A stretch of 64,000 nt of DNA, from positions 502 through 64,501 of the forward strand of contig JBAZRF010000005.1 in assembly GCA_041663165.1 (NCBI GenBank), in the 5' to 3' direction. Below, piece after piece: positions 5,052 through 49,768 of this stretch. The position numbers were made by a program, and so were the translations under genes. The number at the start of each line of letters is the position of its first letter. Position 1 is the first letter of the stretch. The stretch is from Minisyncoccota bacterium. Its GTDB lineage: Bacteria > Patescibacteriota > Minisyncoccia > Phycocordibacterales > XYD1-FULL-46-19. The notes beneath the pieces are model-generated. The model was not told the DNA's origin. It saw nothing but the letters and a program-made list of their open reading frames with translations, and made no database searches.

Positions 5052-5352
5052 AGCTGGCCAGTAGGCAATTGCTCTGTATCGCAAGATATGGGGAGGAAAG
5101 TCCGAACACTCCTCTGTTTCGGCAGAGAGCATGGTAGCGGGTAACGCCCGCCTGGCGCAAGCCACGAGGTGCGAACAGAAACGACCCGGTTTAGTCCGGC
5201 TGAAACGTGCTAAATCCTTACCTGGGTGCAAGGCCGTGCCCCGAGAGAAATCGAGGGGAGTGCCGCTTGAGGCTAACAGTAATGTTGGTCCCAGATAAAT
5301 GATTGCCCTCCGCCAGTTGGCGGAACAGAATTCGGCTTATCGCTGGCCAGCT
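5052..5352 (+). ncRNA. rnpB: RNase P RNA (bacterial type A-like, compact, about 300 nt).
   Basis: The universal motif 'GGGAGGAAAGTCCGAACAC' is at 5092-5110 and 'ACAGAAACGACCCGG' follows. The 5' stretch 'agctggccag' (5052-5061) pairs with the 3' stretch 'ctggccagct' (5343-5352) to form a P1 helix. The region is GC-rich relative to flanking DNA and has no plausible ORF. Confidence 0.85.
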
Positions 5353-5359
5353 AACAAAA

Positions 5360-20415: not shown

Positions 20416-21759
20416 CTACTTCAAAATTGGTTTTAGCCTTTCCCCTAATCCTCGGTAGATTCTGACAAGCAAAAACGTCAATAAGGCGATTCCGCTTGGG
20501 ATTAATGAGGTTAAAGGATTGTCAGTTACAAATTTTAGTATAAGGCCAAGGACATAAACAATCGTACCGACAATAAGGAAGGTATTAATCTCAAAAGCGC
20601 TGGGTTTAAACAAAAAAGAAATAAGAAGGGCCGCGCCAATAACTGAAATCAATGAAATAAGAGCAAAGACTGACGACAAAAAGGAAAATAAATATAAAGA
20701 GGCTCCGGCCGAAATAATTATGCCGAGGATTGTGAAGAGCCTTGTTTTTCTAATGACATTTTCCTTTTTGGTTTTTTTCATTTTCGCTACCAGAACACCA
20801 AGAGCGAAAGCGCTAGAATCGATTGTGCCCATAAAGGCGGCAATTAGAGAGATAATAAGCAATGATCCTAGCCATCCTGGCAGGGCCGCCAAAACCCCTT
20901 CGCTAAATAGATTAGAGGGGTCAGCAATAATCCCAGCAAATTTGAAGTTTATTCCCAAATAGGCAATTGCTCCGGCGACTAAGGCGAGCAGGATAAAAGC
21001 AAAAATCAGTCCTTTTTTTAGGGATTGCGCATCTTTGCTAGCGAAGATTCTTTGAAAACTCTCGGCTTGTCCTAGTAGGCTTAAAAATTGTAATAGCGCC
21101 AGACCGATGGCGAACCAAAATTGAGAAGGATCAAGAGCGGTTGGTATTTTGGCAATTGTAAAATTGACCGGGAAAATAAAAATAGTCAAGACGATTGGTA
21201 ATATCAGAAGTCCTTGAAAGATATCAGTTTTAATGGAGGCCTTAAAACCACCAAACCAGAGATAGACACAAACCACTCCCGTGGTGAGTAAGAGAGCCGG
21301 TATTTTTTCGATGTGGAGCAGGGTGGAGAAGAGGCCGGTGTTAACGAACATTTGTAAAATTAAAAAAAGTGATAGTCCGCCACATAAAATTAAGTTAACA
21401 AAGATTTTACTTAATGATCCATACTGGAGACCAAAGTAATCGCCAATCGAAAGAAGATTGTACTCCTTTTGCAAAGAAGAAAGTCGCTTTTTGTAAAAAA
21501 AGTACAGAACCACAAGGGCCATACCGGCTCCAACAAAGGCCATTAAATACCAAAAGCCATAAAGATAAGCAAAGGTAACACCCAGTACAAAATTATAACC
21601 GGTTAAGAGAGAAGCAAATGTCGTCCAAGTGGACTCGGTCGCCGTGAGATTTTTGGCGCTATTAATGTACTCATCAACGGTTTCTCGACGAGAGGATCGC
21701 CAGGTAATAATGGCCAGTATGCCTAAATACAAAATTAGATAAAATACAGTAATATTCAT
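20416..21759 (-). CDS. Sodium:solute symporter (SSS) family-like transporter.
   Basis: This is a 447-aa polytopic membrane protein (about 12 TM) with an SSS-like N-terminal region. The assignment is tentative. Confidence 0.4.
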   Translation of the reverse strand: MNITVFYLILYLGILAIITWRSSRRETVDEYINSAKNLTATESTWTTFASLLTGYNFVLGVTFAYLYGFWYLMAFVGAGMALVVLYFFYKKRLSSLQKEYNLLSIGDYFGLQYGSLSKIFVNLILCGGLSLFLILQMFVNTGLFSTLLHIEKIPALLLTTGVVCVYLWFGGFKASIKTDIFQGLLILPIVLTIFIFPVNFTIAKIPTALDPSQFWFAIGLALLQFLSLLGQAESFQRIFASKDAQSLKKGLIFAFILLALVAGAIAYLGINFKFAGIIADPSNLFSEGVLAALPGWLGSLLIISLIAAFMGTIDSSAFALGVLVAKMKKTKKENVIRKTRLFTILGIIISAGASLYLFSFLSSVFALISLISVIGAALLISFLFKPSAFEINTFLIVGTIVYVLGLILKFVTDNPLTSLIPSGIALLTFLLVRIYRGLGERLKPILK

Positions 21760-21844
21760 AGTTCCTATTTAATCACACGGGCTAGATAAATGGGGTGAAA
21801 AACAGAGGGGGAGATATAGCCTTATCTTATAAACATATTTTAGC

Positions 21845-21875
21845 TACTAATTGACAAATTATTTGTCAATTAGTA
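21845..21875. promoter_or_regulatory. Perfect 31-bp palindrome TACTAATTGACAAAT-T-ATTTGTCAATTAGTA in a divergent promoter; candidate operator of the adjacent wHTH regulator.
   Basis: The 15-bp arms were read directly from the sequence, and each arm contains TTGACA. It lies between the minus-strand transporter and the plus-strand HTH gene. Confidence 0.5.
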
Positions 21876-21888
21876 TATTTAGATAATT

Positions 21889-22587
21889 ATGATCGGATTA
21901 GACAATTTAGACAATAAAATCTTGAAATTGCTTGGGGAAGAACCCAGTCACCCCTCGGAGATGGCTAGAGAATTGGGGATACTAAGAACAACGATTCATT
22001 ATCGTTTAGGTCGCCTGGCCGAGGCTGGATTAGCAAAAAAGACCATTGTTGGTCGAAAATCTATTTGGCGTCCGGTTTATAAGAATGAGCATAATAAGAG
22101 TTATTACCAGGCCTATTTAGGTCGAGACATTGTCCAAGCCTATAGACAACTTCTCAACTTACCGCCCGACTCAACCATTTTCGCCGTTCAGGGAAGTCTT
22201 GCCGCCAAGAGTGAGTTTGAGAGTTTGCCAACACTCTTTATTAAAGAAGCTCACCGGATATTCAAAAGAAAAAAGATCGTCATGAGAGGGATTTTAAATG
22301 AGAGAGCCTTAGATTTGTTTGCTAAATTAAAAAAAGATCTCGTTAAATCTCATGTTGGCCGAACCCAAAGCATCAAGATGATTTCTGGTAATAAGTTGAG
22401 TGCTCACGGCGAAATAATGTCTAGCGAAAAGATTTTATTACTATCTAACCCAAAGTCGCGTTTTGTTTTAGTGATAAAAGATCCTGGCGTAACAAAAATC
22501 GTCAACGACATGTTTAAACTACTGTTCGAGCTACTTGACGGGAATAAGACCTTTGATCTAAATAGTTATCTAAGTTCAAGATCCTGA
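21889..22587 (+). CDS. Winged-helix (TrmB/MarR-like) transcriptional regulator.
   Basis: The N-terminus 'ILKLLGEEPSHPSEMARELGILRTTIHYRLGRLAEAGLAKK' forms a wHTH. Confidence 0.4.
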   Translation: MIGLDNLDNKILKLLGEEPSHPSEMARELGILRTTIHYRLGRLAEAGLAKKTIVGRKSIWRPVYKNEHNKSYYQAYLGRDIVQAYRQLLNLPPDSTIFAVQGSLAAKSEFESLPTLFIKEAHRIFKRKKIVMRGILNERALDLFAKLKKDLVKSHVGRTQSIKMISGNKLSAHGEIMSSEKILLLSNPKSRFVLVIKDPGVTKIVNDMFKLLFELLDGNKTFDLNSYLSSRS

Positions 22588-23169
22588 TTCTTTTTCGGCC
22601 ACGAGATAATAACGAAAATCGATCGGTTTGAGCTCAACTTTAAAATTATTGGTCGAAAATAGGCTGGCGAGAGAATTTGGGGTATGAAAATGACTGCCCA
22701 TTCGTAGAACTTTTTCAAAGGCCTTAACTAATCGCCCTTTGCCTCTTGTCGGATCATATTCTTCCATCACAATTTGGCCCTTGGTTTTTAAAACTCGCGC
22801 CATTTCTTTGATTGCTTGGTTTTGATTAGGAAAATGATGAAAAGCGTCAACTAAAATTATTTTATCAAAACGATTATCGGTAAAAGGCAAATTCTCGGCG
22901 CTGGCTAAAACGCAAGTCAAACCTTTTTTTTCATGACATTCTTTAAGCATCCCGGTCGAGATGTCGACCACGGTGATTTGGGCGACCTTACCAATTAAAA
23001 ATTTAGCAATTCGCCCGCTCCCGCCACCAAGGTCTAAGACTTGATCAGTCGGCGCAAAATCGGCCAATTCGGCTAGGTGCCCAAAAGTCTTTTTATCACT
23101 AGTGGCCAGATAGTCGTAAATGGGGGCGGTAACATCAAAAAAGCTTTTCATTTTATTTTGCAGATACAA
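22576..23169 (-). CDS. Class I SAM-dependent methyltransferase.
   Basis: 'VLDLGGGSGRIAKFL' is a glycine-rich motif I, and 'KIILVDAFHHF' is motif-II-like. Confidence 0.7.
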   Translation of the reverse strand: MYLQNKMKSFFDVTAPIYDYLATSDKKTFGHLAELADFAPTDQVLDLGGGSGRIAKFLIGKVAQITVVDISTGMLKECHEKKGLTCVLASAENLPFTDNRFDKIILVDAFHHFPNQNQAIKEMARVLKTKGQIVMEEYDPTRGKGRLVKAFEKVLRMGSHFHTPNSLASLFSTNNFKVELKPIDFRYYLVAEKESGS

Positions 23170-24409
23170 TCGAAGTGAACGATGGTTTGATTATCCGACT
23201 ACTTTTAACTAAATAATAAAAACCACCGAGACAAATTAGCATCAATAAAAGGATCGATCCTCGATATTGGATATTCTCACCAAAGTTTTTGAGTAAATAA
23301 AAAGTAAAAAGCCAAACCAACGGCCCCAGAACAGAAGCCGCACGCTCAAAGATCGTAAACAGGCTAAAAAACTCCCCTTGTCTATTTTCGGGCGAAATTT
23401 CAGAATACACCGCTCTTGCCAGAGAGAATAAAAGTCCATAAGCAATACCACTTAAGGCTAAAACAACAAACACGAACGAGGGTATTTGCGGAATAAGGGC
23501 GATAATGCCAAAACAAAACGCATAAAAAACGCTCGATACCCCCAGCGCTTTTTCTTTGTCTTTTAATTTGTAAACAAGCCTGTTTGCCATAAAGCCACCC
23601 ACGACCGTGAAGATTAGACCAGTCATGCCGGCATAGGTTACTAATTTGTCTGAAAAATCAAATACTTTTGTTATGTAAAGCGTTAAATATAACTGAAAAG
23701 TAAGTATCGAATCGGCCAGCAATGAATAACCGATTAAAAAAAGAAAGATTCTCTTTTCGGAAAGTATTGTTTTAAGAAATATTTTGTAAGAAAAGCCCAT
23801 TTTCTCTGCATCGTTTTTTAAATCCTTTTGCTTGAAAAAGGGAATTGAAATTAATGCGAACAATACACCACCGAGGAAAAGCGCCAGCGGCTTTCCACTC
23901 AAACCAATGATCACGAGTGATGAACCCATTATTGGTCCAATTATCCCAAGAGCAAAAGCATTTCCTAATTGTCCTAGACCAAGACCCACCCCTGATACCT
24001 TGGCATTGTTATCAACGCTGGTTATACTTCGCAGCATTGCTGAATAAAAGACATATGAACCCTGAAAACAAACTTGAAATAGAATATAAAAGAAGGAGAG
24101 TCCCAATAATGCCGACACGTTAAAAATATCTATGCTTTGTATTAAAAAGGCGAGAACAAATAATGACACCACCATTAAAACGGAAGCGATTTTTATGAAG
24201 AATATTCTCTTGCCCGTTCGATCAGAGTAGGATCCTAAGTAGGGTAATATAAGCAACAATAATACCGTCGCGACTGACGCCGACACTCCAACCCAAACAT
24301 TGCTCGCGCCTCTCTCCGCCAGCATGAGGGGATAATAAAAAATCAGAACAATTGAAGCAAAGGAGTTTGCAAAATCATAAAGATACCAAAGTCGTACAGC
24401 TTTTTTCAT
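23153..24409 (-). CDS. MFS transporter.
   Basis: The protein is 418 aa with about 12 TM segments, and the loop 'GSYSDRTGKR' resembles the MFS motif A. Confidence 0.55.
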   Translation of the reverse strand: MKKAVRLWYLYDFANSFASIVLIFYYPLMLAERGASNVWVGVSASVATVLLLLILPYLGSYSDRTGKRIFFIKIASVLMVVSLFVLAFLIQSIDIFNVSALLGLSFFYILFQVCFQGSYVFYSAMLRSITSVDNNAKVSGVGLGLGQLGNAFALGIIGPIMGSSLVIIGLSGKPLALFLGGVLFALISIPFFKQKDLKNDAEKMGFSYKIFLKTILSEKRIFLFLIGYSLLADSILTFQLYLTLYITKVFDFSDKLVTYAGMTGLIFTVVGGFMANRLVYKLKDKEKALGVSSVFYAFCFGIIALIPQIPSFVFVVLALSGIAYGLLFSLARAVYSEISPENRQGEFFSLFTIFERAASVLGPLVWLFTFYLLKNFGENIQYRGSILLLMLICLGGFYYLVKSSRIIKPSFTSIVSAK

Positions 24410-24425
24410 ACAAATTCCGTTCGAG

Positions 24426-24498
24426 TGGGCGATACAGGATTCGAACCTGTGACATCCACAACGTCAATGTGGCGCTCTACCAACTGAGCTAACCGCCC
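24426..24498 (-). tRNA. tRNA-Val (anticodon GAC).
   Basis: The reverse complement 'GGGCGGTTAGCTCAGTTGGTAGAGCGCCACATTGACGTTGTGGATGTCACAGGTTCGAATCCTGTATCGCCCA' has anticodon stem ccaca/tgtgg and loop TTGACGT. Confidence 0.75.
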
Positions 24499-25181
24499 AA
24501 ATTATCTGCAATTTCCTGACAAAACTTTCTGCCAATATATACTAATTTTCTTTGTATGGCAACATTGCCGCAACTAATTATACAGACGCCTTTATAATTA
24601 GGATAAGTCTTTGTACCAAGCGTTCTTTTGTCAATTGAGACTTTCCTAAACCTATCAGTCGGCATCTCTAATTTTTTTGCCCAGTATTTTTTCAAAAGCT
24701 CTGGGTCCTGGTCGGCCCGTAAGTGAAGGTAAAAAGATATATTTTCCATCTTAAGATTGTAGACAAATTTCATTACTTTTAAAAAGAATTTTAAAATTAG
24801 CGGGTCTGAATTACCCAAACTCGTTGCTGATCCAGCTTTGTACCCTTCGCCAAGATAAAGCATTGCCAGGCTTAATTCTAATATTTCTCGGTCTTTGTCG
24901 ATTTTATTGAGCGTTTTATCTGCTTCAATTTCGGCGGTTCTCAGTCTGTCTTCTTTTTGCCCGTTGTGCCACTTCGTCGCTCCTTTCCTTGCTTTGATCA
25001 AAGCTCTTTCATGTTTTCGCTTCAATCTTTTCTTTTGTAACGAAGTAAGTTTTATATCTCTGAACCAGCCACTCAAAGTGGAGCGGGGAATGTCCAGAGT
25101 TTTTTCGACATCCCTAATAGATTTGCCTTTTTCTCTTAGTGAGATTGCCTTTGACTTTAACTCGAACCACCTTGATTTCAT
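24489..25181 (-). CDS. HTH-containing protein with a possible single LAGLIDADG-like motif ('LAMLYLGEGYK'); a free-standing homing-endonuclease-like gene next to tRNA-Val.
   Basis: The N-terminal HTH 'GKSIRDVEKTLDIPRSTLSGWFRD' and the stretch 'ILELSLAMLYLGEGY' resemble LAGLIDADG/GxxEGEG variants. The assignment is tentative. Confidence 0.3.
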   Translation of the reverse strand: MKSRWFELKSKAISLREKGKSIRDVEKTLDIPRSTLSGWFRDIKLTSLQKKRLKRKHERALIKARKGATKWHNGQKEDRLRTAEIEADKTLNKIDKDREILELSLAMLYLGEGYKAGSATSLGNSDPLILKFFLKVMKFVYNLKMENISFYLHLRADQDPELLKKYWAKKLEMPTDRFRKVSIDKRTLGTKTYPNYKGVCIISCGNVAIQRKLVYIGRKFCQEIADNLGG

Positions 25182-25719: not shown

Positions 25720-25756
25720 CTCCCTATTATAAAATGAATAGGAAAAAAAGTCTCTG

Positions 25757-25843
25757 CGGAGGCGGGAGGATTCGAACCCCCGATGCCCTTTCAGGCATAC
25801 ATGTTTTCGAAACATGCGCGTTCAACCACTCTGCCACGCCTCC
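25757..25843 (-). tRNA. tRNA-Ser (anticodon CGA), with a long variable arm.
   Basis: The reverse complement 'GGAGGCGTGGCAGAGTGGTTGAACGCGCATGTTTCGAAAACATGTATGCCTGAAAGGGCATCGGGGGTTCGAATCCTCCCGCCTCCG' has anticodon loop TTCGAAA and the variable stem-loop tatgcc-tgaaa-gggcat. Confidence 0.75.
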
Positions 25844-25933
25844 TTTCGACAAACCAAATCCTAACATTTTCTTGGCAACTTTTCAAAAAAATGATATATT
25901 GCTGGCGTCAAGTTCGGGTTCTAAAAATTTATT

Positions 25934-26005
25934 GGCCCCATCGTCTAATGGTTAGGACATCACCCTTTCACGGTGGTAATCCGGGTTCGACTCCCGGTGG
26001 GGTCA
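25934..26005 (+). tRNA. tRNA-Glu (anticodon TTC).
   Basis: 'GGCCCCATCGTCTAATGGTTAGGACATCACCCTTTCACGGTGGTAATCCGGGTTCGACTCCCGGTGGGGTCA' closely resembles bacterial tRNA-Glu(UUC). Confidence 0.8.
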
Positions 26006-26027
26006 CAAAATTCATACAATTTTAATG

Positions 26028-26060
26028 TTTATCCAGTGCTTATCCACAGGGTTATCCTTG
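26028..26060. promoter_or_regulatory. Array of three DnaA-box-like 9-mers at about 11-bp spacing (TTTATCCAG, TTATCCACA [a perfect consensus match], TTATCCTTG), directly upstream of a DnaA-like gene.
   Basis: 'tttatccagtgcttatccacagggttatccttgg' was read directly. TTATCCACA at 26040-26048 equals the E. coli DnaA-box consensus. Confidence 0.55.
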
Positions 26061-26169
26061 GTTTGGGGCTTTGATTTGACCACCATTGTGACAAAATGTA
26101 AGAGGAGAAGACCGGTGTGCGGTCTTCCTGTTCGTTGAAAGACGACAGCGTAAGCGAAACAAATATGAG

Positions 26170-27819
26170 GTGTTGATCATGGAGACCGATGCTAAGACGG
26201 TTGGTGGCGCCGATGCCACTATCGGTCTGGCTCCGGTCCAGGTCGATCATCTCGCGATTGTTCGAAGTGAGTTCAGCCGGAAAATGCACGAGCGGGTCAG
26301 AACCAATCTTGGCGATCAATCGTATGATCTCTGGATTGTCAGCGGGGGAGTAACGTTCAGTTTTTACGAGGATCAACTCTCAGAAAGACTGGCTGGAGTC
26401 GTCTATACGGCGAGTTCCTTTGCTTCTGGCTGGCTCGGTGACCCCAAAAAGGTTTATCTAGCCGCTATAACCACTGCGTTCAGAGAGCAAGAAATCTTCC
26501 ACTGGAAGTGCGTGGAGGATGGGGCACTCTGTGAAGTGGCCAAGAAAGAAGTTCTGCCGGTAAGACAGTGTTTACCGAATCTTGAGGCCGAGAAGCCCGA
26601 GCCGGTAGTAAGTAACAAGAAGGTGCCGAAGTTCTGCCCTGGCAGGCCACCTGTTATCGGAGTTAGTTTCGAAGACTTTGTCCCCGAAACCTCGGCTAAC
26701 AAAATGGCGCTGGAGGCAGCCCAGGAGCTTACCAAGAGCCGAAAAGCAGCTAGGTTTACCAGCGCGATTTTTCACGGACCTAGCGAGTCCGGAAAGAAAC
26801 ACCTGGTTCTCTCGACTCTTCGGGCGATGTTGGAGGCTTATCCAAGACTGGATGTCTTCTACTTGGATGGAGACGGGTTCGGTACCCTGTTCCCGAGTTT
26901 CTTCTGGACAGGAAAGGGTGGCCAAACTCAAGCCAACGACGCGGATCTCAAGATCTTCAAGGACCGTCTCTACGCCGCCCAAGTTCTCGTTATCCCCGAC
27001 CTTGACCTTGTTGGCCTTAGGCATGACGGGAGCAAGAGACAAATGGCTCGGGCCATAAATCTGGTTCGCCAGAATGGAGGCCGAGTCCTGATCTCTCTGC
27101 TCCAGCCGCTGCCGGAAAGTGAGGCTGAGGGTATCGACCTGTTTGGACCAGAGCTCTACCGGGTGATAAAAGAGATAAGAAATTTCCGAATGGAAAGAAT
27201 TTCTCGGGAATCTTATCCCCTAGTTGCCCAAGCGTTTCTGGCTAAGCAGTTCATCTCGGCTAAAACACCGGGAGAGAGGGCAATTGTCGATTGGATAGTG
27301 AGGAGGACAAAAAGCCTCACTGTGCTAAAGAATCGACTTGAAACCCTTGTTGAAGAGCATAACAGGAGGGCGACGGATGGCCGCCGTGTCACCCTGCCGG
27401 AGGTGCAAGAACTGTTCAAGTTCCCGCCAAACGCCGACGATCTCATTGCCCTAGTACTGGAGGTCGGGAAACTTCAGCGGAAGGTCCGTCGTGGCGAGGT
27501 CGAATATAAGCGAGTTTTAGATATCGCTTGCTACCTTGCTTCTGAAGTTGTCGGTCTCGACCGGGAGAAGGTTGCTCAGTGGTTCTATCCGGACACCATC
27601 TGGGCAAGTTGCGATGTCAGCGGTGGCCTAATGCGTATCGAGAAGCTTCTGGAGACCTCAGAGGCCCGCTTTCCTCTCGGCATTTTGGCAAGAGAACTCT
27701 TGCGCCGGTTCTCCGTTCCTGAAGGGAAAAGAGAATTCTGGGCCAGCAGGCTAAAGGAGTGGACTCTCTCTGAGTCGGGCAAGAGCAAGGGTCGTCGTCG
27801 CTGTCGAGACAAGTTTTAG
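26170..27819 (+). CDS. Divergent DnaA-like AAA+ protein (DnaA domain III and IV homolog with a non-canonical Walker A, GKK, and an unrelated N-terminal domain of about 170 aa), located in a high-GC island.
   Basis: 'SFEDFVPETSANKMALEAAQEL...FHGPSESGKKHLVLS' parallels DnaA 'TFDNFVxGxSNxLAxAAA...LFLYGGxGLGKTHLL'. 'VLVIPDLDLV' is Walker B. 'KRQMARAINLVRQNGGRVLISLLQPLPE' parallels DnaA 'KERTQEEFFHTFNAL...QIVLTSDRPP'. The C-terminal 'KRVLDIACYLASEVVGLDREKVAQWF...SGGLMRIEKLLE' parallels the DnaA domain IV HTH. Confidence 0.55.
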   Translation: MLIMETDAKTVGGADATIGLAPVQVDHLAIVRSEFSRKMHERVRTNLGDQSYDLWIVSGGVTFSFYEDQLSERLAGVVYTASSFASGWLGDPKKVYLAAITTAFREQEIFHWKCVEDGALCEVAKKEVLPVRQCLPNLEAEKPEPVVSNKKVPKFCPGRPPVIGVSFEDFVPETSANKMALEAAQELTKSRKAARFTSAIFHGPSESGKKHLVLSTLRAMLEAYPRLDVFYLDGDGFGTLFPSFFWTGKGGQTQANDADLKIFKDRLYAAQVLVIPDLDLVGLRHDGSKRQMARAINLVRQNGGRVLISLLQPLPESEAEGIDLFGPELYRVIKEIRNFRMERISRESYPLVAQAFLAKQFISAKTPGERAIVDWIVRRTKSLTVLKNRLETLVEEHNRRATDGRRVTLPEVQELFKFPPNADDLIALVLEVGKLQRKVRRGEVEYKRVLDIACYLASEVVGLDREKVAQWFYPDTIWASCDVSGGLMRIEKLLETSEARFPLGILARELLRRFSVPEGKREFWASRLKEWTLSESGKSKGRRRCRDKF

Positions 27820-27958
27820 TCAGGGCCCCCGGAGTACACTGTCCGCGGGCCCTTTCGCATTTTTATAATTTTTAGAAATAAAAGTTTCCCCAAACCAAAA
27901 GCCCCTTGTCGGGGCTTTTGGGCCTACTGCTTACCACTAATCAACGTGCCTTTAGCAA

Positions 27959-28900
27959 TTACATGGCCGGCGTGGTAAACGAGTAGGTCGTGGAGGTAGC
28001 TGTTCCTCCTCCGGCGTTGGTCGAGGTCACGACATAATAATAAGTCGTGTTGGGGATTAGACCGGATAAGGTTCCCAGATGGAAGAAGGCCGGCACCACG
28101 TCACTGGCCGCTGGAGTTCCGGCCGTGCTAACCGGTGTTGTGGTTGAGAGCCACAATTTCCCATCAGCTAACTGGTCGGTAACGAGAATCACTATCGCGC
28201 TGGTACTAGACACGTTGAAAGCGCTAGTGAAGAGGATGGCTGGTGGCGGGGAAATTACCGGCGGGGTACTTGTTCCGGTAGCCGTAGTGGTAAACGATAC
28301 AACCGAGGATGTTGCCGTTTTGTCGGCACTGCTTGCTCGAACGGTCAGATAATAGGTGGTACTAGGGATGAGACCGGTCAAGGCCAAACTATGAGTAGTT
28401 GTTGTGGCGGTCGGGTCAATTATCACCGTCCCTCCGTTCGTGGCCAACTGAGTGGTGGTGCCAAACATCACGTTGCCGGTTGTTGGTAAATTGGTTAACC
28501 AACTGATACTGGCCGAGGTCGAGGCGACGGAAGAGAAATTGATACTAGAGATTGACAAGATCGCCTGACCACCGCCATGTTCAGCTTCATTTTCGTGTTC
28601 ATCTTCTCTCTCTCCGTATCCGGTTTGTTCGTTTTGATTCTTGCCGTGATCGTCATCGTCTTCTTTCTTGCTACCAGAGTTGTCACTATTCTGATTTTGC
28701 TGACCATGATCATCTTGGGTTGCCGGTGTGGCCACTACTTGATGTTGATCTTGTCTTCTTTCGGCTTGATCTCTTCCAGACGGCTCTCGGCCACCGCCAT
28801 CCTCGGCGAGAGCCAAAGCGCCAGGCACGGCGAGCACCAACGCTAAAGCGATCGAGAAAGGGACGAGTTTACTATGCCATTTAATCAATAATCTTTTCAT
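27959..28900 (-). CDS. Secreted protein with an acidic/His-rich linker and two FN3/PKD-like beta-sandwich repeats (high GC).
   Basis: A signal peptide is at 'MKRLLIKWHSKLVPFSIALALVLAVPGALA'. The 'GLIP(S/N)TTYY' repeat occurs twice, which is typical of FN3-like domains. Regional GC is about 57%. Confidence 0.4.
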   Translation of the reverse strand: MKRLLIKWHSKLVPFSIALALVLAVPGALALAEDGGGREPSGRDQAERRQDQHQVVATPATQDDHGQQNQNSDNSGSKKEDDDDHGKNQNEQTGYGEREDEHENEAEHGGGQAILSISSINFSSVASTSASISWLTNLPTTGNVMFGTTTQLATNGGTVIIDPTATTTTHSLALTGLIPSTTYYLTVRASSADKTATSSVVSFTTTATGTSTPPVISPPPAILFTSAFNVSSTSAIVILVTDQLADGKLWLSTTTPVSTAGTPAASDVVPAFFHLGTLSGLIPNTTYYYVVTSTNAGGGTATSTTYSFTTPAM

Positions 28901-29061
28901 AAGATTTTTTAAGTTAAGTTAATCGACTAAACATCAATGGCGACTAATTTACTCAACTAGCGACGACCAGAGACTCATTTGGCGGGGATTTATTGGCTTT
29001 TCCGCCAACGGCCCGCTAGGTAGGTTGTAGGTTTATAACTACGATTTGGTCCCAAATTCTG

Positions 29062-29883
29062 GTGCAAAGCCCGGATGTTTGTTATAGTTTTCTTATGATA
29101 ATTTGGATTGCGCTAGCCACTTTTTGCTCAACACTTTTGGGCGGACTTTTTGCTTTGCGGTTTCGGGATAAGTTGCACTTGATTCTCGGCTTCTCGGCCG
29201 GGGCGGTGATTGGCGTCGCTTTTTTTGATTTATTGCCCGAAGCGATTAATTTGGGGCAAGGACTTTATGATGTTTCTTTTGTTACTGGCATTGTCGCACT
29301 CGGTTTTATTGTCTACATGACTCTTGACCGTTTGATTTTATTTCATCCGCCGGCCGACGAGGATTGTCTCGACTGTCATAACGAGCACCACCAATTAGGA
29401 AGTTGGCCCCAAGGCCTTTGGCGGGGTAAACTAGGCGCTGGCACCTTGGCCGTGCACAGTTTTCTCGACGGCTTGGCAATTGGCCTGGCCTTCCAAGTTT
29501 CATCGGCCGTCGGCGTGATTGTGGCGGTCGCGGTTTTAACTCATGATTTTTCTGACGGCATTAACACGGTTGGTTTGATTTTAAAAACCGGGCACTCTGC
29601 GGTGCCCGGCCAGACCGATCCAGACAAGAAACGCCAAGCGTTTAGCTGGCTTTTGATAGATGCCATTGCGCCGGTGCTGGGTGTTTTGGCCACTTTATTT
29701 TTTACTCTCTCCGAAACTTCCCTCGGCCTCATCCTGGCCGTTTTTTGCGGCTTCTTCCTCTATATCGGCGCCTCCGAATTGCTCCCTGAGAGTCATCACG
29801 GCCACTCCACGCGCTTGACTACCCTAATGACGATTCTCGGCGCCTTGGTGCTATATCTGGCGGTTAAACTGGCCGGGGTCTAA
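29062..29883 (+). CDS. zupT: ZIP-family zinc/metal transporter (ZupT-like).
   Basis: 'HNEHHQ', 'HSFLDGLAIGLAF', 'HDFSDG' and 'HHGHS' are ZIP signature His/Asp-rich TM motifs. Confidence 0.75.
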   Translation: MQSPDVCYSFLMIIWIALATFCSTLLGGLFALRFRDKLHLILGFSAGAVIGVAFFDLLPEAINLGQGLYDVSFVTGIVALGFIVYMTLDRLILFHPPADEDCLDCHNEHHQLGSWPQGLWRGKLGAGTLAVHSFLDGLAIGLAFQVSSAVGVIVAVAVLTHDFSDGINTVGLILKTGHSAVPGQTDPDKKRQAFSWLLIDAIAPVLGVLATLFFTLSETSLGLILAVFCGFFLYIGASELLPESHHGHSTRLTTLMTILGALVLYLAVKLAGV

Positions 29884-39304: not shown

Positions 39305-39961
39305 ATGTCTCAAAGAAAAGTCGCTTTTGCTATCGGAGAATATTACCACGTTTTCAATCGCGGGATTGAAGGTCGGAGTATTTTTGCCAATGATGAAGAC
39401 CTCAATCATTTTATTCAAAGTGTCGAAAAATTTAACGACAACAATGTTGTAGGAGGTTTATACATGAGCTCGTTCGATAAATACAAGAAAAAAGGGAAGA
39501 GATTAGTAAATATCATTTGTTATGCTTTCAACCCAAACCATTATCATTTTTTAATGACTCCCTTGGTCGAGAAAGGTATAGAAAATTTTATGCAACGGCT
39601 CGGTACCGGTCATACAATGTTTTTTAATCACCAGCACAAGAGGAAGGGGAGATTGTTTCAAGGTGTTTTTAAATCAGCCCATATTGATTCGAATGAGTAT
39701 TTAATGCATTTGAGTGTTTACATTAATTTAAACGACAAAGTTCACCAACTTAGAGGCGAGGCCTCTAAGTTGGCAAAAACTAGCTGGAATAGCTATGCCT
39801 CGAAAAAGAGAGACATTTTGCTTAGGGATATAAGCATAATTACCAATCAATTCAAAAATCCCAAAGAGTATAAAAAATTCGCCGAAGAAATTTTGCCAGA
39901 TATTATTGAAAGAAAACAATTACTGAAAGAGCTTGAAGCTATCATTATCGAGGAAGAATAG
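39305..39961 (+). CDS. REP-associated tyrosine transposase (RAYT; IS200-like Y1/HuH transposase family), carrying an internal in-frame REP copy.
   Basis: The N-terminal 'YYHVFNRGIEGRSIFANDEDLNHFIQ' matches RAYT 'YHVxxRGNxRQxIFxDDxDRxxFL'. The HuH motif is in 'ICYAFNPNHYHFLM'. 'GRLFQGVFKSAHIDSNEYLMHLSVYINLN' parallels 'GHLWQGRYKSxLVxxExYLLxLSRYIxLNP' and contains the catalytic Tyr. 'SWNSYAS' parallels RAYT 'WSSY'. Confidence 0.65.
   Translation: MSQRKVAFAIGEYYHVFNRGIEGRSIFANDEDLNHFIQSVEKFNDNNVVGGLYMSSFDKYKKKGKRLVNIICYAFNPNHYHFLMTPLVEKGIENFMQRLGTGHTMFFNHQHKRKGRLFQGVFKSAHIDSNEYLMHLSVYINLNDKVHQLRGEASKLAKTSWNSYASKKRDILLRDISIITNQFKNPKEYKKFAEEILPDIIERKQLLKELEAIIIEEE
39745..39773. repeat. REP-like palindrome (ccaacttagaggc-gag-gcctctaagttgg) inside the RAYT ORF; it encodes 'HQLRGEASKLA'.
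   Basis: A 13-bp perfect stem whose core is identical to the other copies. Confidence 0.7.
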
Positions 39962-39989
39962 CCACTTAGAGGCGAGGCCTCTAAGTGGC
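39961..39989. repeat. REP-like palindrome (gccacttagaggc-gag-gcctctaagtggc) immediately after the RAYT stop codon.
   Basis: A 13-bp perfect stem. Confidence 0.7.
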
Positions 39990-40030
39990 TTGCTGATGAC
40001 TTACTGATTTTAACTTGCTATAATTTTTTT

Positions 40031-40684
40031 GTGGATAAAATAATCGGTTCATTCGTCGAAGAACTTAAAAAAAGACCAGACGTTATTGGTATTATTCTTT
40101 TTGGCTCTTGGGCCAGGGGAAACAATCGGCCGGATAGTGACATCGATCTAATGGTTATTACCATTGAGGAGTTTAGGAGGACCGTTGAATATAAAGATAA
40201 TCGAGCTTTTGAAATTACTTATACGACAGAAAAATCAGCGATGGACTATTGGGAGAGTCACAAAAATGATTGTGCTGGATTGTGGGAAGTGGCAAAAATT
40301 CTCTACGATAAGGACGGAACGATAAAAAAGCTCGAAGAGTTTGCTCAAGGGATTATAAAAAAAGGGAAAAACCCGTTGGATGAAATAAAGATAGGTCATC
40401 TTAAATTTGACGCCAAGGACAGTTTAGAGGCGGTTAAGGCTCTTGCTAAAACCGAACCAGTCCTAGCTAATTTTTTATTAACGAACAAAATCTTTTGGCT
40501 GACTGAATTATTTTTTGATATCCGCCAATTGTGGGTACCGGCTCCTAAACAGAGGTTCGACAAAATAAAAGAAATTGACAAAGAGTTTTTCGATCTTCTA
40601 ACTCAGTTTTATCAAGACGGCATTGCTCTTACTGAGAAAATAAAAATTGCTGAAAAGACCATACCGATAGTTTTTAAAAGTTAG
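40031..40684 (+). CDS. Nucleotidyltransferase-domain protein (minimal Pol-beta-type NTase fused to a C-terminal helical domain; KNTase/Lnu-like architecture).
   Basis: 'GIILFGSWARGNNRPDSDIDLMVI' carries the GS...DxD NTase motif. The protein is 217 aa. Confidence 0.5.
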   Translation: MDKIIGSFVEELKKRPDVIGIILFGSWARGNNRPDSDIDLMVITIEEFRRTVEYKDNRAFEITYTTEKSAMDYWESHKNDCAGLWEVAKILYDKDGTIKKLEEFAQGIIKKGKNPLDEIKIGHLKFDAKDSLEAVKALAKTEPVLANFLLTNKIFWLTELFFDIRQLWVPAPKQRFDKIKEIDKEFFDLLTQFYQDGIALTEKIKIAEKTIPIVFKS

Positions 40685-49180: not shown

Positions 49181-49759
49181 CTACTTTGTTTTCCACCGCC
49201 AGGTCACATATAGCGGTGGTTCACCTTTGTTCACCTTGAAGTAAACGGGTTCTCCTGGGTCCAGCGTCACGCTGTCCCCGTCGCCAACCGAATGCCACTC
49301 TCCACCGCCACTCTTTATCAAGAAGCGGCGGCCGTGTTCCGCACCCGGAGCTAGGCGGTGGTCGCCTTCAATCGCTCCGTTTTCCCAGGCGATCGGTACT
49401 ACTTCGTCGGTGAGACGAAGGGTTCGCCACTCGCCCCAGCTAGCCTCTTTCGCCGCCGGGCAAGTCTTAGTGCTGCTACACACAGACGCGATATAGCAGA
49501 GCCCATATACGAAGATTACCGCCAACGCCAGAATCATGAACATCCCGTCTCGTGGCAGTGGGGCCTTGGCCTTAGGCTTCTTCTCGGCCGTGGCCGCCGC
49601 TTCCTTGGTGTCGGTCTTCTTTTCTGCCCCTTTCTCTTTGGCCTTCGACACCTTTTCCTTGTTTGTCCTTCTGGCTTGGCATAGCGCCAGAACGACGAAG
49701 ATGGTTGACGGTATCGTTACCACGGAAAGGATTGCTCCTATTGTCCACCACATTGTCAT
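49181..49759 (-). CDS. NfeD-like membrane protein (C-terminal beta-rich/OB-like domain); putative partner of the upstream SPFH protein. High GC.
   Basis: An N-terminal TM, a Lys/Ala-rich linker and a second TM are followed by the C-terminal 'GEWHSVGDGDSVTLDPGEPVYFKVNKGEPPLYV'. The protein lies immediately downstream of an SPFH gene. Confidence 0.35.
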   Translation of the reverse strand: MTMWWTIGAILSVVTIPSTIFVVLALCQARRTNKEKVSKAKEKGAEKKTDTKEAAATAEKKPKAKAPLPRDGMFMILALAVIFVYGLCYIASVCSSTKTCPAAKEASWGEWRTLRLTDEVVPIAWENGAIEGDHRLAPGAEHGRRFLIKSGGGEWHSVGDGDSVTLDPGEPVYFKVNKGEPPLYVTWRWKTK

Positions 49760-49768
49760 ACTCCTTTC

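What the first reader, a model, noticed from the sequence alone, without database searches (positions are those of the whole stretch)
26170..27819. Divergent DnaA-like AAA+ protein with a non-canonical Walker A (GKK) and a novel N-terminal domain
Residues from about 165 to 549 track DnaA domain III. 'SFEDFVPETSANKMALEAAQ' aligns to DnaA 'TFDNFVxGxSNxLAxAAA'. The P-loop 'GPSESGKKHL' aligns to 'GxGLGKTHL'. The Walker B is 'LVIPDLD'. 'GGRVLISLLQPLPE' aligns to 'QIVLTSDRPPKE'. The C-terminal 'KRVLDIACYLASEVVGLDREKVAQWF...' is a DnaA domain-IV-like HTH. The first roughly 165 aa have no DnaA domain I/II resemblance. The GKT to GKK substitution and the GC-rich island context suggest a horizontally acquired DnaA paralog. 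It could be a replication initiator of a mobile element or an initiation regulator, rather than the housekeeping DnaA.
Basis: partly seen in the sequence, partly recalled or inferred. Interest (0 to 1): 0.65.

Follow-up and report, generated by a model that had tools for sequence, protein, structure and literature searches.

The report
Accessory, catalytically degenerate DnaA look-alike
This gene encodes a complete but highly diverged copy of the bacterial replication initiator DnaA that has lost almost all of its ATP-handling and DnaA-box-reading residues; it sits in a swap-prone genomic slot that the closest relatives fill with other genes (including restriction-modification genes) or leave empty, so it is an optional extra and not the cell's own initiator.

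Summary
The ORF is real (26170-27819 +; the likely start is the ATG at 26179, giving 546 aa) and NCBI already names it a 'DnaA/Hda family protein' in a Candidatus Paceibacterota (CPR) MAG. Pfam PF00308 matches above its cut-off. Profile-profile comparison and an AlphaFold model show homology to DnaA along the whole length: domain I, linker, AAA+ domain III and HTH domain IV. The 'novel N-terminal domain' is therefore a diverged DnaA domain I. The GKK Walker A is confirmed, and it is only part of a wider loss. The Walker A Thr, first Walker B Asp, sensor I Asp, box VII Arg, Arg finger, sensor II Arg and the DHTT DnaA-box motif are all replaced or deleted across a tiny family of six sequences among 1.8 billion representatives. 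The gene sits between a tRNA-Ser/tRNA-Glu pair and ZIP-TrxR-FtsZ. Four related lineages carry it there and six lack it, including the window's three closest relatives. One of those has a type II R-M/defence island in the slot and one has an empty site. The gene is GC-rich in every carrier and diverges much faster than its neighbours. No phage, plasmid or integrase link was found. Best reading: an accessory, laterally exchanged, non-hydrolysing DnaA paralog, probably a modulator of replication or DNA binding. Its function is untested.

The parts
26179..27819 (+).
   Evidence: ORF. Identical public protein P0001 of 546 aa. SD GAGGTG at 26167-26172 and a conserved SD/ATG context.
26203..26247 (+). 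Conserved N-terminal peptide GGADATIGLAPVQVD (res 9-23) inside a predicted disordered tail (res 1-27). Possible partner-binding short linear motif.
   Evidence: Conserved as GGxNAT[IVL][GD]LAP..Q[IV]D in alignments A1 and A5. pLDDT 23-41. Any function is inference only.
26260..26553 (+). DnaA domain I-like N-terminal domain (res 28-125)
   Evidence: hhalign local 90.7%, E 1.3e-6, to E. coli DnaA 6-80. Score 38.3 against 9.6+-2.0 for shuffled columns, 0/40. P0004 hits Pfam DnaA_N at E 5e-4, below the gathering score. AF2 pLDDT 80-95 with alpha-alpha-beta-beta-alpha-alpha-beta order. Foldseek gives no significant PDB hit, only KH-like folds including the DciA N-domain.
26554..26658 (+). Low-complexity linker (res 126-160), equivalent to DnaA domain II, ending in the conserved F.PG.PP
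   Evidence: pLDDT below 50 for res 130-150. Variable length in A1. Aligned to the E. coli domain II region.
26659..27213 (+). AAA+ domain III core (res 161-345) with degenerate catalytic motifs
   Evidence: PF00308 34.7 bits, gathering score 23. hhalign 99.7%, E 5.6e-27. Foldseek top hits are DnaA 8btg/1l8q/2hcb/3r8f. Residue map.
26776..26805 (+). Walker A GPSESGKKHL: Lys206 invariant; the Mg-binding T/S position is Lys207 (family K/S/R/K/K/G)
26983..27006 (+). Walker B VLVIPDLD: first Asp replaced (family P/T/T/V/A/E), second Asp mostly kept (D/N/D/D/D/G)
27076..27117 (+). Box VI / sensor I region GGRVLISLLQPLPE: GGRV..S invariant, but the sensor I Asp (E. coli D269) is L/Q/S/S/S/S
27214..27423 (+). 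Lid / domain IIIb region (res 346-415). The sensor II arginine (E. coli R334) falls in a family-wide deletion.
   Evidence: Lower pLDDT, 35-65.
27424..27714 (+). DnaA domain IV-like helix-turn-helix (res 416-512). The DnaA-box reading motif DHTT is replaced (ASCD in this protein).
   Evidence: hhalign 83.6%, E 8.2e-6. Score 38.0 against 10.9+-2.1 shuffled, 0/40. One continuous HMMER alignment to T. maritima DnaA up to residue 434. P0005 hits PF08299 at E 1e-5, below the gathering score. Residue map.
27715..27816 (+). C-terminal extension with a basic, Cys-containing tail (..KSKGRRRCRDKF), shared only by the three closest family members
   Evidence: Alignment A1. pLDDT below 50 for res 532-546.
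26070..26097 (+). Promoter-like block conserved among carrier genomes: TTTGAT.., then an extended -10 of the form TGnCAAAAT
   Evidence: Conserved columns in alignment A4; coordinates. It was not flagged by the simple consensus scan, so it is inferred.
26107..26127 (+). Inverted repeat / hairpin in the 5' leader: GAAGACCG-GTGTG-CGGTCTTC
   Evidence: Conserved in L001, L002 and L006, with two compensatory double changes against L001 (GACCG/CGGTC to GATCA/TGATC). Its role as an RNA attenuator or a palindromic operator is inferred.
26029..26057 (+). Three TTATCC repeats at 11-12 bp spacing; the middle one (26040-26048) is a perfect DnaA box TTATCCACA. Found in the window only.
   Evidence: It is the only such cluster in the window, reached by 4 of 500 shuffles. 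Absent upstream in L001-L004.
27823..27866 (+). Terminator-like GC-rich hairpin (GGGCCC...GGGCCC) followed by a T-rich tail just after the stop codon, indicating a monocistronic unit
25756..26006 (.). Divergent tRNA-Ser(cga)/tRNA-Glu(ttc) pair forming the conserved left flank of the variable slot
   Evidence: The same pair flanks the slot in L001, L008, L010, L011 and L013, in either orientation.
27959..28900 (-). GC-rich secreted fn3 / purple-acid-phosphatase-N-like protein, co-resident cargo of the slot in this genome only
   Evidence: Pfam. GC 0.517. Absent from the slot in all relatives.
29096..29883 (+). ZIP transporter gene, the conserved right flank of the slot (followed by TrxR, FtsZ and FtsA)

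Best explanation
Shown. The gene encodes a full-length, four-domain homolog of DnaA: domain I, linker, AAA+ domain III and HTH domain IV. It belongs to a very small, fast-evolving family confined to a few Paceibacteria (CPR) lineages. The family keeps the fold and the P-loop lysine. It has lost the Walker A Thr, the first Walker B Asp, the sensor I Asp, both box VII arginines including the arginine finger, the sensor II arginine, the ssDNA-contacting H and B motif residues, and the DHTT DnaA-box reading motif. The gene is a monocistronic accessory module with its own conserved promoter-like block, leader hairpin and terminator. It sits in a variable slot between a tRNA-Ser/tRNA-Glu pair and ZIP-TrxR-FtsZ. 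Equally close or closer relatives have that slot empty or filled with other cargo, including a type II restriction-modification/defence cluster.

Inferred. It cannot work as a classical ATP-switch initiator, and the host must have another initiator, presumably a canonical DnaA. The most likely mode of action is as a non-hydrolysing DnaA-derived scaffold. It would bind DNA through its retargeted domain IV. Through domain I (the F46-equivalent Phe is conserved) and its AAA+ surfaces it would engage replication proteins such as host DnaA, the helicase or the clamp. This would modulate, most plausibly restrain or cap, initiation complexes on the chromosome or on incoming replicons. The gene probably spreads among related CPR genomes by homologous recombination through the conserved flanks.
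For: Homology and architecture: PF00308 above threshold. The family profile hits DnaA in the PDB, with one continuous alignment to T. maritima DnaA 89-434. hhalign over the full length gives 100%, E 7.7e-46, with each domain separately significant and mismatched-domain controls at 0.3-0.4%. Column-shuffle calibration gives z of about 13-14 for domains I and IV. The AF2 model's top Foldseek hits are DnaA over 355-370 columns, ahead of Hda, DnaC, FtsH and ORC. Viral hits are weaker and cover only the AAA+ core.

Degeneracy: the residue map shows the canonical control sequences keeping every catalytic residue while the family does not. An independent HMMER alignment to B. subtilis DnaA gives the same domain IV register.

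Rarity: 6 representatives among 1.84 billion, all singletons.

Accessory status: the gene is present in the window, L001 (=L008), L002 (=L003) and L006. It is absent, with no tblastn remnant, in L010, L011 and L013. No such gene is called in L014 or on the P0021 and P0031 contigs. The window's closest relatives by FtsZ (89-91%) and FtsA (82-88%) are the non-carriers. L013 is an empty site with tRNA-Glu abutting ZIP. L010 carries REase_II, MTase_II and PDC-S23 in the slot.

Fast evolution and composition: the protein is 38-46% identical between genomes whose flanking proteins are 65-91% identical. GC and GC3 are raised in every carrier.

Module structure: conserved promoter-like block, leader hairpin, SD and terminator.
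Against: No functional evidence of any kind exists, and the mechanism is inferred from losses and retentions of residues. I could not inspect the rest of the MAG or the 553-kb contig of the close relative, so the existence of a canonical dnaA in these genomes is inferred, not shown. P0002 retains a canonical GKS Walker A, and most members keep one Walker B Asp, so nucleotide binding without hydrolysis is not excluded. Domain I and domain IV homology rests on profile-profile scores from only 6-7 sequences per side. Pfam hits for these domains are sub-threshold and occur in single members. Foldseek with the isolated N-domain found no DnaA domain I structure. Only one of six alternative cargos is recognisably defence-related, so 'defence hotspot' is a weak label. 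The TTATCC cluster is not conserved.
Confidence: 0.55

Rival explanations
1. Stand-alone conflict or defence gene. The DnaA-derived pseudo-ATPase would act against invading replicons (phages or plasmids), for example as a decoy for invader factors that target DnaA, or as a dominant-negative cap on initiator filaments that assemble on foreign origins.
For: It occupies a hotspot that holds a type II R-M pair, PDC-S23 and a weak SIR2-like gene in the closest relative. Its distribution is patchy, with 4 of 10 lineages carrying it. It diverges much faster than its neighbours. Its GC is atypical in all carriers. Initiator-clade AAA+ paralogs are common cargo of fast-evolving archaeal islands (PMC4158269).
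Against: There is no match to any PADLOC model (best E 0.017). The protein has no recognisable effector domain. The guilt-by-location argument rests on a single relative. The other alternative cargos are unknown ORFs, a GIY-YIG gene or nothing. The family is too small for a statistical test of defence-island association.
Confidence: 0.2
2. Replication initiator of an integrated or formerly extrachromosomal mobile element inserted next to the tRNA genes.
For: The gene is tRNA-adjacent and lies in a GC-atypical, variably present segment. Some secondary replicons carry dnaA-like genes; the single plasmid hit is a canonical dnaA on a Sphingomonas replicon.
Against: There is no integrase, recombinase, partition or transfer gene in the slot in any carrier, and the module is a single gene. 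There are no att-like direct repeats and no iterons or shared flanking k-mers. There are no relatives in phages, plasmids, IMG/VR or PHROGs. The tRNA pair is part of the conserved backbone in non-carriers too. Loss of the arginine finger, sensors and ssDNA-binding residues is hard to reconcile with origin melting.
Confidence: 0.1
3. It is the organism's only, highly derived chromosomal initiator: the dnaA ortholog, relocated and remodelled, in a lineage with unusual initiation.
For: All four DnaA domains are retained in order. In the window, a perfect DnaA box within a TTATCC triplet lies upstream, which resembles dnaA autoregulation. No other dnaA is present in the 64-kb window. JGI annotated it as a chromosomal replication initiation ATPase.
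Against: Six related lineages lack the gene at this slot, including relatives at about 90% FtsZ identity, and no family member from them appears in the exhaustive search. The gene is not next to dnaN. It is 38-46% identical where core proteins are 65-91% identical. Every catalytic residue that canonical DnaAs keep is lost, as is the DnaA-box reading motif, so it could not read the TTATCCACA box itself. The box cluster is absent in the other carriers. TIGR00362 scores 29.8 against a cut-off of 343.9.
Confidence: 0.05
4. A decaying relic: a duplicated or transferred dnaA copy that is drifting without function.
For: The catalytic motifs are lost wholesale, divergence is fast and the gene is frequently absent.
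Against: Intact ORFs of 534-587 aa persist in all six family members despite 24-53% pairwise identity. There are 32 invariant columns and long conserved blocks such as GGRV..S, VLD.ACYLA.EV.GLDRE and YVP..F..WL. The promoter-like block, SD, leader hairpin with compensatory changes, and terminator are conserved. The AF2 model is confident over the folded domains.
Confidence: 0.08

Closest known systems
Chromosomal replication initiator DnaA (TIGR00362; Pfam PF11638 + PF00308 + PF08299)
   Same: The four-domain order and folds are the same. The best sequence, profile and structure matches are all DnaA. It shares the P-loop Lys, an initiator-specific helical insert between beta2 and beta3, the box VI GxxV..S strand, the F46-equivalent Phe in domain I and the HTH scaffold in domain IV.
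   Different: It lacks the Walker A Thr, first Walker B Asp, sensor I Asp, R281, the R285 arginine finger, sensor II R334, V211/R245 and the DHTT DnaA signature. It scores 29.8 against the 343.9 equivalog cut-off. It is not beside dnaN. It is accessory and patchy, not universal. It has an extra about 10-residue Gly-rich insertion in the ISM region, an N-terminal conserved peptide and a basic C-terminal tail.
Hda / HdaA (DnaA-related regulatory inactivator; TIGR03420)
   Same: It is a DnaA paralog that regulates initiation and does not initiate it. It has a short N-terminal peptide ahead of the folded part; in Hda this is the beta-clamp motif QL[SP]LPL (established knowledge). Structural similarity is seen in the AAA+ core (3bos, 5x06).
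   Different: Hda consists of domain III only and depends on its arginine finger to trigger DnaA-ATP hydrolysis. This protein has domains I and IV and has no conserved arginine finger. TIGR03420 scores 17.1 against 194.8. The N-terminal peptide lacks the conserved Gln, and its function is untested.
Non-catalytic AAA+ subunits of replication machines (clamp-loader delta-prime/HolB; Orc subunits with degenerate sites)
   Same: An initiator or clamp-loader-clade AAA+ fold is kept while nucleotide-hydrolysis motifs are lost, and the subunits act as structural or regulatory partners (established knowledge). This is the working analogy for the mechanism.
   Different: Those proteins are universal core subunits encoded in all members of their lineages. 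This one is an optional, hotspot-borne gene. No partner has been identified.
Initiator-clade AAA+ paralogs in archaeal 'dark matter' islands (SSV 'DnaA-like' ATPase arCOG07960; Orc/Cdc6-related arCOG00467)
   Same: They are fast-evolving, narrowly distributed initiator-type AAA+ genes located in variable genomic islands together with defence and mobile genes (PMC4158269).
   Different: They are archaeal and virus-associated and are not full-length bacterial DnaA homologs. No sequence relationship was tested here beyond the shared AAA+ clade.
DnaC / IstB-type helicase loaders (phage and IS21)
   Same: AAA+ core similarity is seen (3ecc, 5bq5; phage DnaC-like proteins; phrog_50 hit for one member at E 6.7e-5).
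   Different: Only about 190-200 columns of the ATPase core align, and they rank below DnaA. There is no DnaA-type domain I or IV in loaders. The catalytic residues are intact in loaders.

Membership tests
DnaA superfamily (homology to bacterial DnaA) | Bac_DnaA AAA+ domain (PF00308) at or above the gathering score | tested here: met
   34.7 bits against 23 for P0001. Four of six members are above threshold and one is at 22.7.
DnaA superfamily (homology to bacterial DnaA) | Colinear domain I - linker - domain III - domain IV architecture | tested here: met
   hhalign full length, family 28-510 to E. coli DnaA 1-467. Per-domain probabilities are 90.7%, 99.7% and 83.6%, with controls at 0.3-0.4% and shuffle z of 13-14. 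Foldseek top hits are DnaA over domains III+IV.
Bona fide chromosomal initiator DnaA (TIGR00362 equivalog) | Equivalog HMM score above the curated cut-off | tested here: not met
   29.8 bits against 343.9.
Bona fide chromosomal initiator DnaA (TIGR00362 equivalog) | Intact Walker A GK[T/S] and Walker B hhhhDD | tested here: not met
   T179 becomes K/S/R/K/K/G and D235 becomes P/T/T/V/A/E. Only K178 is invariant. The canonical controls keep all of them.
Bona fide chromosomal initiator DnaA (TIGR00362 equivalog) | Sensor I Asp, box VII Arg (R281), arginine finger (R285) and sensor II Arg (R334) | tested here: not met
   D269 becomes L/Q/S/S/S/S, R281 becomes E/E/E/P/E/E, R285 becomes E/G/D/D/R/S, and R334 falls in a deletion.
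Bona fide chromosomal initiator DnaA (TIGR00362 equivalog) | Domain IV DnaA signature (R399 and the DHTT recognition helix) for reading TTATCCACA | tested here: not met
   The DHTT positions read ASCD, PIDR, ALDM, SAEN, NYAT and GEFD in the six members. R399 is partly kept (R/R/R/G/R/S). The same register is seen in the HMMER alignment to 8btg. There is no PF08299 hit for P0001.
Bona fide chromosomal initiator DnaA (TIGR00362 equivalog) | Universal presence in the lineage and the usual dnaA-dnaN/oriC neighbourhood | tested here: not met
   The gene is absent from the syntenic slot in 6 of 10 related lineages. There is no dnaN in the 64-kb window. There is no window-wide DnaA-box enrichment: 17 found against 12.9 expected.
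Bona fide chromosomal initiator DnaA (TIGR00362 equivalog) | ATP binding and hydrolysis, and origin unwinding | not testable with these tools
   This needs biochemistry.
Hda (TIGR03420) | Equivalog HMM score above the cut-off, and a domain-III-only architecture | tested here: not met
   17.1 bits against 194.8. The protein has domains I and IV.
Hda (TIGR03420) | N-terminal beta-clamp-binding motif (QL[SP]LPL-type) | tested here: inconclusive
   A conserved N-terminal peptide ..AT[IVL][GD]LAP.. lies in a disordered tail.
Hda (TIGR03420) | Conserved arginine finger used to stimulate DnaA-ATP hydrolysis | tested here: not met
   There is no conserved Arg at the box VII positions.
Known anti-phage defence proteins (PADLOC-DB v2) | Significant match to a defence-system model | tested here: not met
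   The best matches are Csx3-AAA at E 0.017 and mad8 at E 0.03, each in one or two members. P0001 has none.
Phage or plasmid replication initiators | Homologs encoded on phages, plasmids or viral contigs, with linked element genes | tested here: not met
   There is no phage hit, and the one plasmid hit is a canonical dnaA at 28% coverage. PHROGs gives nothing for P0001. IMG/VR gives nothing. There is no integrase and there are no att repeats.

The most novel reading that the evidence does not exclude
A DnaA-derived pseudo-ATPase that works as a single-gene conflict module in CPR bacteria. It would be exchanged through a tRNA-flanked defence hotspot. It would use the retained DnaA folds (domain I partner surface, AAA+ docking face, retargeted HTH) to cap or mis-assemble initiator complexes on invading replicons, or to act as a decoy for invader factors that target DnaA. 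That would be a defence or anti-takeover principle built on the replication initiator itself.
Probability: 0.15. Interest if true: 0.75.

Novelty: new variant of a known kind. Interest (0 to 1): 0.45.

Why it matters
DnaA is among the most conserved bacterial proteins, and its ATP switch is central to replication control. This family is a naturally occurring full-length DnaA scaffold stripped of the switch and of DnaA-box reading, yet kept as an intact gene, with conserved regulatory signals in the closest carriers. It shows what the fold can do without ATP hydrolysis. If it caps or titrates initiation complexes, it would be a new type of initiation modulator. It would also be a rare glimpse of replication control, and possibly of genetic conflict, in the uncultured CPR bacteria. 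Practically, it is a caution for annotation: JGI labels it 'chromosomal replication initiation ATPase DnaA', which could mislead origin prediction and genome rotation in CPR MAGs. The family is very small (six sequences), so its general importance is limited unless a function is demonstrated.

Tried and rejected
1. I first read the conserved order TspO - tRNAs - gene - ZIP - TrxR - FtsZ - FtsA in L001, L002 and L006 as vertical inheritance of a core gene. I rejected this after TrxR-anchored sampling showed six related lineages, including the closest, without the gene and with other cargo or an empty site.

2. I considered the TTATCC/DnaA-box cluster upstream as a sign of an origin or conserved autoregulation. 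It is locally unusual (4/500 shuffles). It is absent in the other carriers, the window shows no overall box enrichment, and the protein lacks the box-reading residues. I kept it only as a window-specific curiosity.

3. I considered tRNA-Glu as an integration att site. The tRNA pair is conserved backbone in non-carriers, and no convincing direct repeats flank the segment.

4. The word-indexed homolog search returned only the query itself, twice. The exhaustive HMMER search was needed to find the family.

5. The search for related loci with the six-sequence alignment failed for lack of conserved stretches. The four-sequence alignment added only known members and one duplicate, L008 = L001.

7. 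A selection test from duplicate assemblies was not possible. L002/L003 and L001/L008 are identical at the DNA level.

8. A search for iterons or shared k-mers in flanks found none.

9. Literature searches for CPR DnaA paralogs found nothing specific.

10. I could not determine whether the MAG has a canonical dnaA. The genome and metagenome scans and the homolog searches were exhausted, and only +-10 kb of the relative's 553-kb contig could be read.


Full report
1. The observation.

An ORF runs from 26170 to 27819 on the + strand (549 aa from a GTG). The public database holds the identical protein starting three codons later at the ATG at 26179. It is 546 aa (P0001, MFA6254056.1), named 'MAG: DnaA/Hda family protein [Candidatus Paceibacterota bacterium]' by NCBI and 'chromosomal replication initiation ATPase DnaA' by JGI, on a 64,991-bp contig. 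A GAGGTG Shine-Dalgarno at 26167-26172, and conservation of the SD/ATG context in relatives, favour 26179 as the start.

The window is a normal CPR chromosomal fragment. It carries ribonucleotide reductase, RNase P RNA, MurJ, LepA, aminoacyl-tRNA synthetases, TsaD, FtsZ/FtsA, GyrA, IF-2, ClpB and 13 tRNAs.

2. Is it DnaA-like?

- Pfam PF00308 matches at 34.7 bits against a gathering score of 23, over residues 163-306.
- A profile of the family hits only DnaA chains in the PDB (8btg at 3e-10). It aligns in one stretch to Thermotoga DnaA residues 89-434, which covers domains III and IV.
- I compared the family alignment with a small canonical DnaA alignment: E. coli DnaA plus six metagenomic DnaAs that match E. 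coli DnaA at 1e-57 to 1e-83. This gave 100% probability, E 7.7e-46, over family 28-510 against E. coli 1-467.
- In local mode each domain stands alone. Domain I gives 90.7% (E 1.3e-6). Domain III gives 99.7% (E 5.6e-27). Lid plus domain IV gives 94.6%. Domain IV alone gives 83.6% (E 8.2e-6). Mismatched-domain controls give 0.3-0.4%.
- Shuffling template columns gave 9.6+-2.0 (max 19.3) against a real score of 38.3 for domain I. For domain IV it gave 10.9+-2.1 (max 17.3) against 38.0. In both cases 0 of 40 shuffles reached the real score.
- Single family members give sub-threshold Pfam hits to DnaA_N (P0004, E 5e-4) and Bac_DnaA_C (P0005, E 1e-5).
- An AlphaFold2 model from the six-sequence alignment has mean pLDDT 70.7, with 80-93 over the AAA+ core. 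Its best Foldseek matches are DnaA (8btg, 1l8q, 2hcb, 3r8f; E of about 1e-8; 355-370 columns). These rank ahead of Hda, DnaC, FtsH, RFC and ORC.
- Viral protein structures match only the AAA+ core, and more weakly.

The 'novel N-terminal domain' is therefore best read as a diverged DnaA domain I followed by a disordered domain II-like linker. This is supported by calibrated profile comparison but not by an independent structural match.

3. How degenerate is it?

I mapped well-characterised E. coli DnaA residues through the profile alignment onto the six family members.

| E. coli DnaA residue | Role | Family members |
|---|---|---|
| K178 | Walker A Lys | K in all |
| T179 | Walker A Thr (Mg) | K/S/R/K/K/G |
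| D235 | Walker B | P/T/T/V/A/E |
| D236 | Walker B | D/N/D/D/D/G |
| D269 | sensor I | L/Q/S/S/S/S |
| R281 | box VII | E/E/E/P/E/E |
| R285 | arginine finger | E/G/D/D/R/S |
| R334 | sensor II | in a deletion |
| V211 / R245 | ssDNA contacts | not kept |
| D433-H434-T435-T436 | DnaA-box reading | ASCD, PIDR, ALDM, SAEN, NYAT, GEFD |

The canonical control sequences keep all of these. The HMMER alignment to B. subtilis DnaA gives the same domain IV register.

What is kept:
- the fold;
- the P-loop glycines and Lys;
- the GGRV..S strand;
- the F46-equivalent Phe of domain I (F in five members, M in one);
- a strongly conserved domain IV block, VLD.ACYLA.EV.GLDRE.VA.WFYP;
- a conserved N-terminal peptide (GGxNAT[IVL][GD]LAP) in a disordered tail;
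- in the three closest members, a basic Cys-containing C-terminal tail.

4. How common is it?

An exhaustive HMMER pass over 1.84 billion representative proteins found five full-length relatives (27-46% identity, 534-587 aa). After them come only ordinary DnaAs at E of about 1e-4, matching the AAA+ core. All six family members are singletons. Scans of GTDB genomes, JGI metagenomes and IMG/VR added nothing new. Labels on carrier MAGs are Candidatus Paceibacterota or Vogelbacteria, with one loosely labelled Saccharibacteria.

5. Genomic context: first impression and revision.

In L001, L002/L003 and L006 the gene lies in the same place as in the window. It is downstream of TspO and a tRNA-Ser(cga)/tRNA-Glu(ttc) pair and upstream of ZIP, TrxR, FtsZ and FtsA. 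I first took this as vertical inheritance. Three things did not fit that reading.
- The protein is only 38-46% identical between genomes whose neighbouring proteins are 65-81% identical.
- Its GC and GC3 are raised relative to its neighbours in every carrier.
- Contigs often break just upstream of it.

I then used the adjacent TrxR as an anchor and inspected more relatives.
- L010 is a 552,915-bp contig with TrxR about 81-84% identical to the window's. Its slot holds a type II restriction enzyme (PADLOC REase_II 8.6e-135), its methylase (5.3e-117), a PDC-S23/Fic-RhuM protein (2.6e-100), a weak SIR2-like protein and unknowns, at GC 0.387.
- L011 has an extra tRNA-Glu(ctc) and two unknown low-GC ORFs.
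- L013 has an empty site, with tRNA-Glu directly abutting ZIP.
- L014 has only a GIY-YIG gene.
- The P0021 and P0031 contigs have other unknown ORFs.
- tblastn with all six family proteins finds no remnant in L010, L011 or L013.

By FtsZ (89-91%) and FtsA (82-88%), the window's closest relatives are exactly the non-carriers L010, L013 and L011. The carriers are more distant, at FtsZ 74-79%. Identities among the four close genomes are star-like. Strict vertical descent would therefore need several independent losses, and a gain or exchange at the hotspot is at least as parsimonious.

Relative to the empty site, the window's cargo is about 26007-29095. It comprises the DnaA-like gene and a GC-rich secreted fn3-type protein found in no other relative.

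The tRNAs are backbone, not att sites, and no flanking repeats, integrase or iterons exist.

6. The module.

Upstream of the gene the carriers share four elements:
- a promoter-like block (TTTGA.. then an extended -10, TGn[C/T]A[A/G]AAT; window 26070-26097);
- a leader inverted repeat (26107-26127, GAAGACCG-N5-CGGTCTTC), with two compensatory double changes in L001;
- a block with consensus ATTGACAG (clearest in L001 and L006);
- the Shine-Dalgarno sequence.

A GC-rich hairpin with a T-rich tail follows the stop codon at 27823-27866. The gene is thus a self-contained monocistronic unit with no conserved partner gene.

Only in the window, three TTATCC repeats at helical spacing sit just upstream of the promoter block, at 26029-26057. 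The middle one is a perfect TTATCCACA. This is the only such cluster in 64 kb and is reached in 4 of 500 shuffles. Because the protein lacks the box-reading residues, a functional box would have to be read by a canonical DnaA. The cluster is not conserved, so I treat it as a lead only.

7. What it most likely does.

Shown: it is an intact, conserved, accessory, full-length DnaA homolog without the catalytic and DnaA-box-reading residues.

Inferred:
- It cannot act as an ATP-switch initiator.
- The host, like the non-carrier relatives, must use another initiator.
- The retained surfaces (domain I with the F46-equivalent, the AAA+ body, a retargeted HTH, an N-terminal peptide) suit a scaffold. 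Such a scaffold would bind DNA and replication proteins and modulate initiation, most plausibly by restraining or capping it.

This parallels the non-catalytic AAA+ subunits of clamp loaders and ORC, and the regulatory DnaA paralog Hda (established knowledge). It fails the membership tests for both DnaA proper and Hda.

A defence or conflict role is the main rival. It is supported by the hotspot's content in the closest relative, the patchy distribution and the fast evolution. It is also consistent with the finding that initiator-clade AAA+ paralogs are frequent in archaeal fast-evolving islands (PMC4158269). Against it, no PADLOC model matches and no effector domain is present.

The mobile-element initiator reading is poorly supported: there are no relatives in phages, plasmids, PHROGs or IMG/VR. 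The sole-initiator and pseudogene readings are poorly supported for the reasons given under the rival explanations.

8. Limits.

I could not read the rest of the MAG or the relative's 553-kb contig, so the presence of a canonical dnaA is inferred. Alignments are shallow, at six family sequences. Domain I lacks an independent structural match. No selection statistics were possible. All functional statements are inference.

9. Verdict.

This is a real feature, already annotated generically as DnaA/Hda-like. The new points are four:
- it is a complete four-domain DnaA homolog;
- it is a family-wide pseudo-ATPase with a retargeted or disabled DNA-reading head;
- it is very rare;
- it is optional cargo of a tRNA-flanked hotspot that carries restriction-modification genes in a sister genome.

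It is a new variant of a known kind and of moderate interest.

Noticed in passing
window 26029-26057: Three TTATCC repeats at 11-12 bp spacing, the middle one a perfect DnaA box TTATCCACA, lie immediately upstream of the gene's promoter-like block. This is the only such cluster in the window (4/500 shuffles). It is absent upstream of the gene in the other carriers.
   Followed up: partly
window 26107-26127 (and L001 3162-3181, L006, L002 equivalents): A conserved inverted repeat or hairpin lies in the 5' leader (GAAGACCG-GTGTG-CGGTCTTC), with two compensatory double changes in L001 (GATCA/TGATC). It could be an RNA attenuator or a palindromic operator.
   Followed up: partly
window 26203-26247 (protein residues 9-23): A conserved N-terminal peptide GGxNAT[IVL][GD]LAP..Q[IV]D sits in a predicted disordered tail. 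It loosely resembles the beta-clamp-binding hexapeptide of Hda and Pol IV (QLxLxL) but lacks the Gln.
   Followed up: no
window 26179-27819; L001 3255-4958; L002 202-1806; L006 341-1987: The DnaA-like gene keeps raised GC and GC3 relative to its neighbours in every carrier genome (for example GC3 of 0.576 against about 0.47, and 0.538 against 0.43). This is unexpected for a long-resident gene and remains unexplained.
   Followed up: partly
window 27959-28900 (-): A GC-rich secreted protein with fn3 / purple-acid-phosphatase-N-like domains and a low-complexity acidic N-terminal region shares the variable slot with the DnaA-like gene. It is found in no relative's slot.
   Followed up: partly
window 20416-25181: A low-GC (0.38-0.41) block lies between TsaD and TspO. 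It holds an SSF symporter, an HTH regulator, a methyltransferase, an MFS transporter, tRNA-Val and a 230-aa protein with weak HTH/transposase-HTH hits. In L010, TspO, tRNA-Val and TsaD are adjacent, so this is a second variable segment.
   Followed up: partly
window 49181-50839 (-) and 60548-61693 (+): Two further strongly GC-rich patches (GC 0.56-0.59, GC3 0.64-0.72) stand in a 45% GC genome. One holds an SPFH/Band 7 protein with a 192-aa neighbour, and the other a 381-aa protein with no Pfam match. They are possibly other laterally acquired genes.
   Followed up: no
L001 2618-2866, L008 1313-1561, L014 5855-6106: A small GIY-YIG protein gene is inserted between or beside the tRNA-Glu and tRNA-Ser genes in some relatives but not in the window. 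The tRNA pair is also inverted in the window and L013 relative to L001 and L010.
   Followed up: partly
L010 11743-17183: The closest relative's slot carries a compact defence cluster: a type II REase, its MTase, PDC-S23 (Fic/RhuM), a weak SIR2-like protein, a SOUL-domain protein and unknown ORFs.
   Followed up: yes
window 39305-40684: An IS200-like Y1 transposase fragment (weak, E 2e-4) and a nucleotidyltransferase (NTP_transf_2) gene lie in a low-GC (0.35-0.37) stretch. The stretch sits at a gene-strand switch and a local GC-skew sign change, and a perfect TTATCCACA lies at 40030-40038 (-). I did not investigate it as a possible origin or island.
   Followed up: no
window 5053-5355: Bacterial RNase P RNA class A (140.5 bits) lies between the ribonucleotide reductase gene and a TPR protein gene. 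This is an ordinary feature.
   Followed up: no
(method): The word-indexed protein search returned only the query, even when given an alignment containing P0002-P0006, which are in the collection. Family members this divergent are only reachable by the exhaustive HMMER search.
   Followed up: yes
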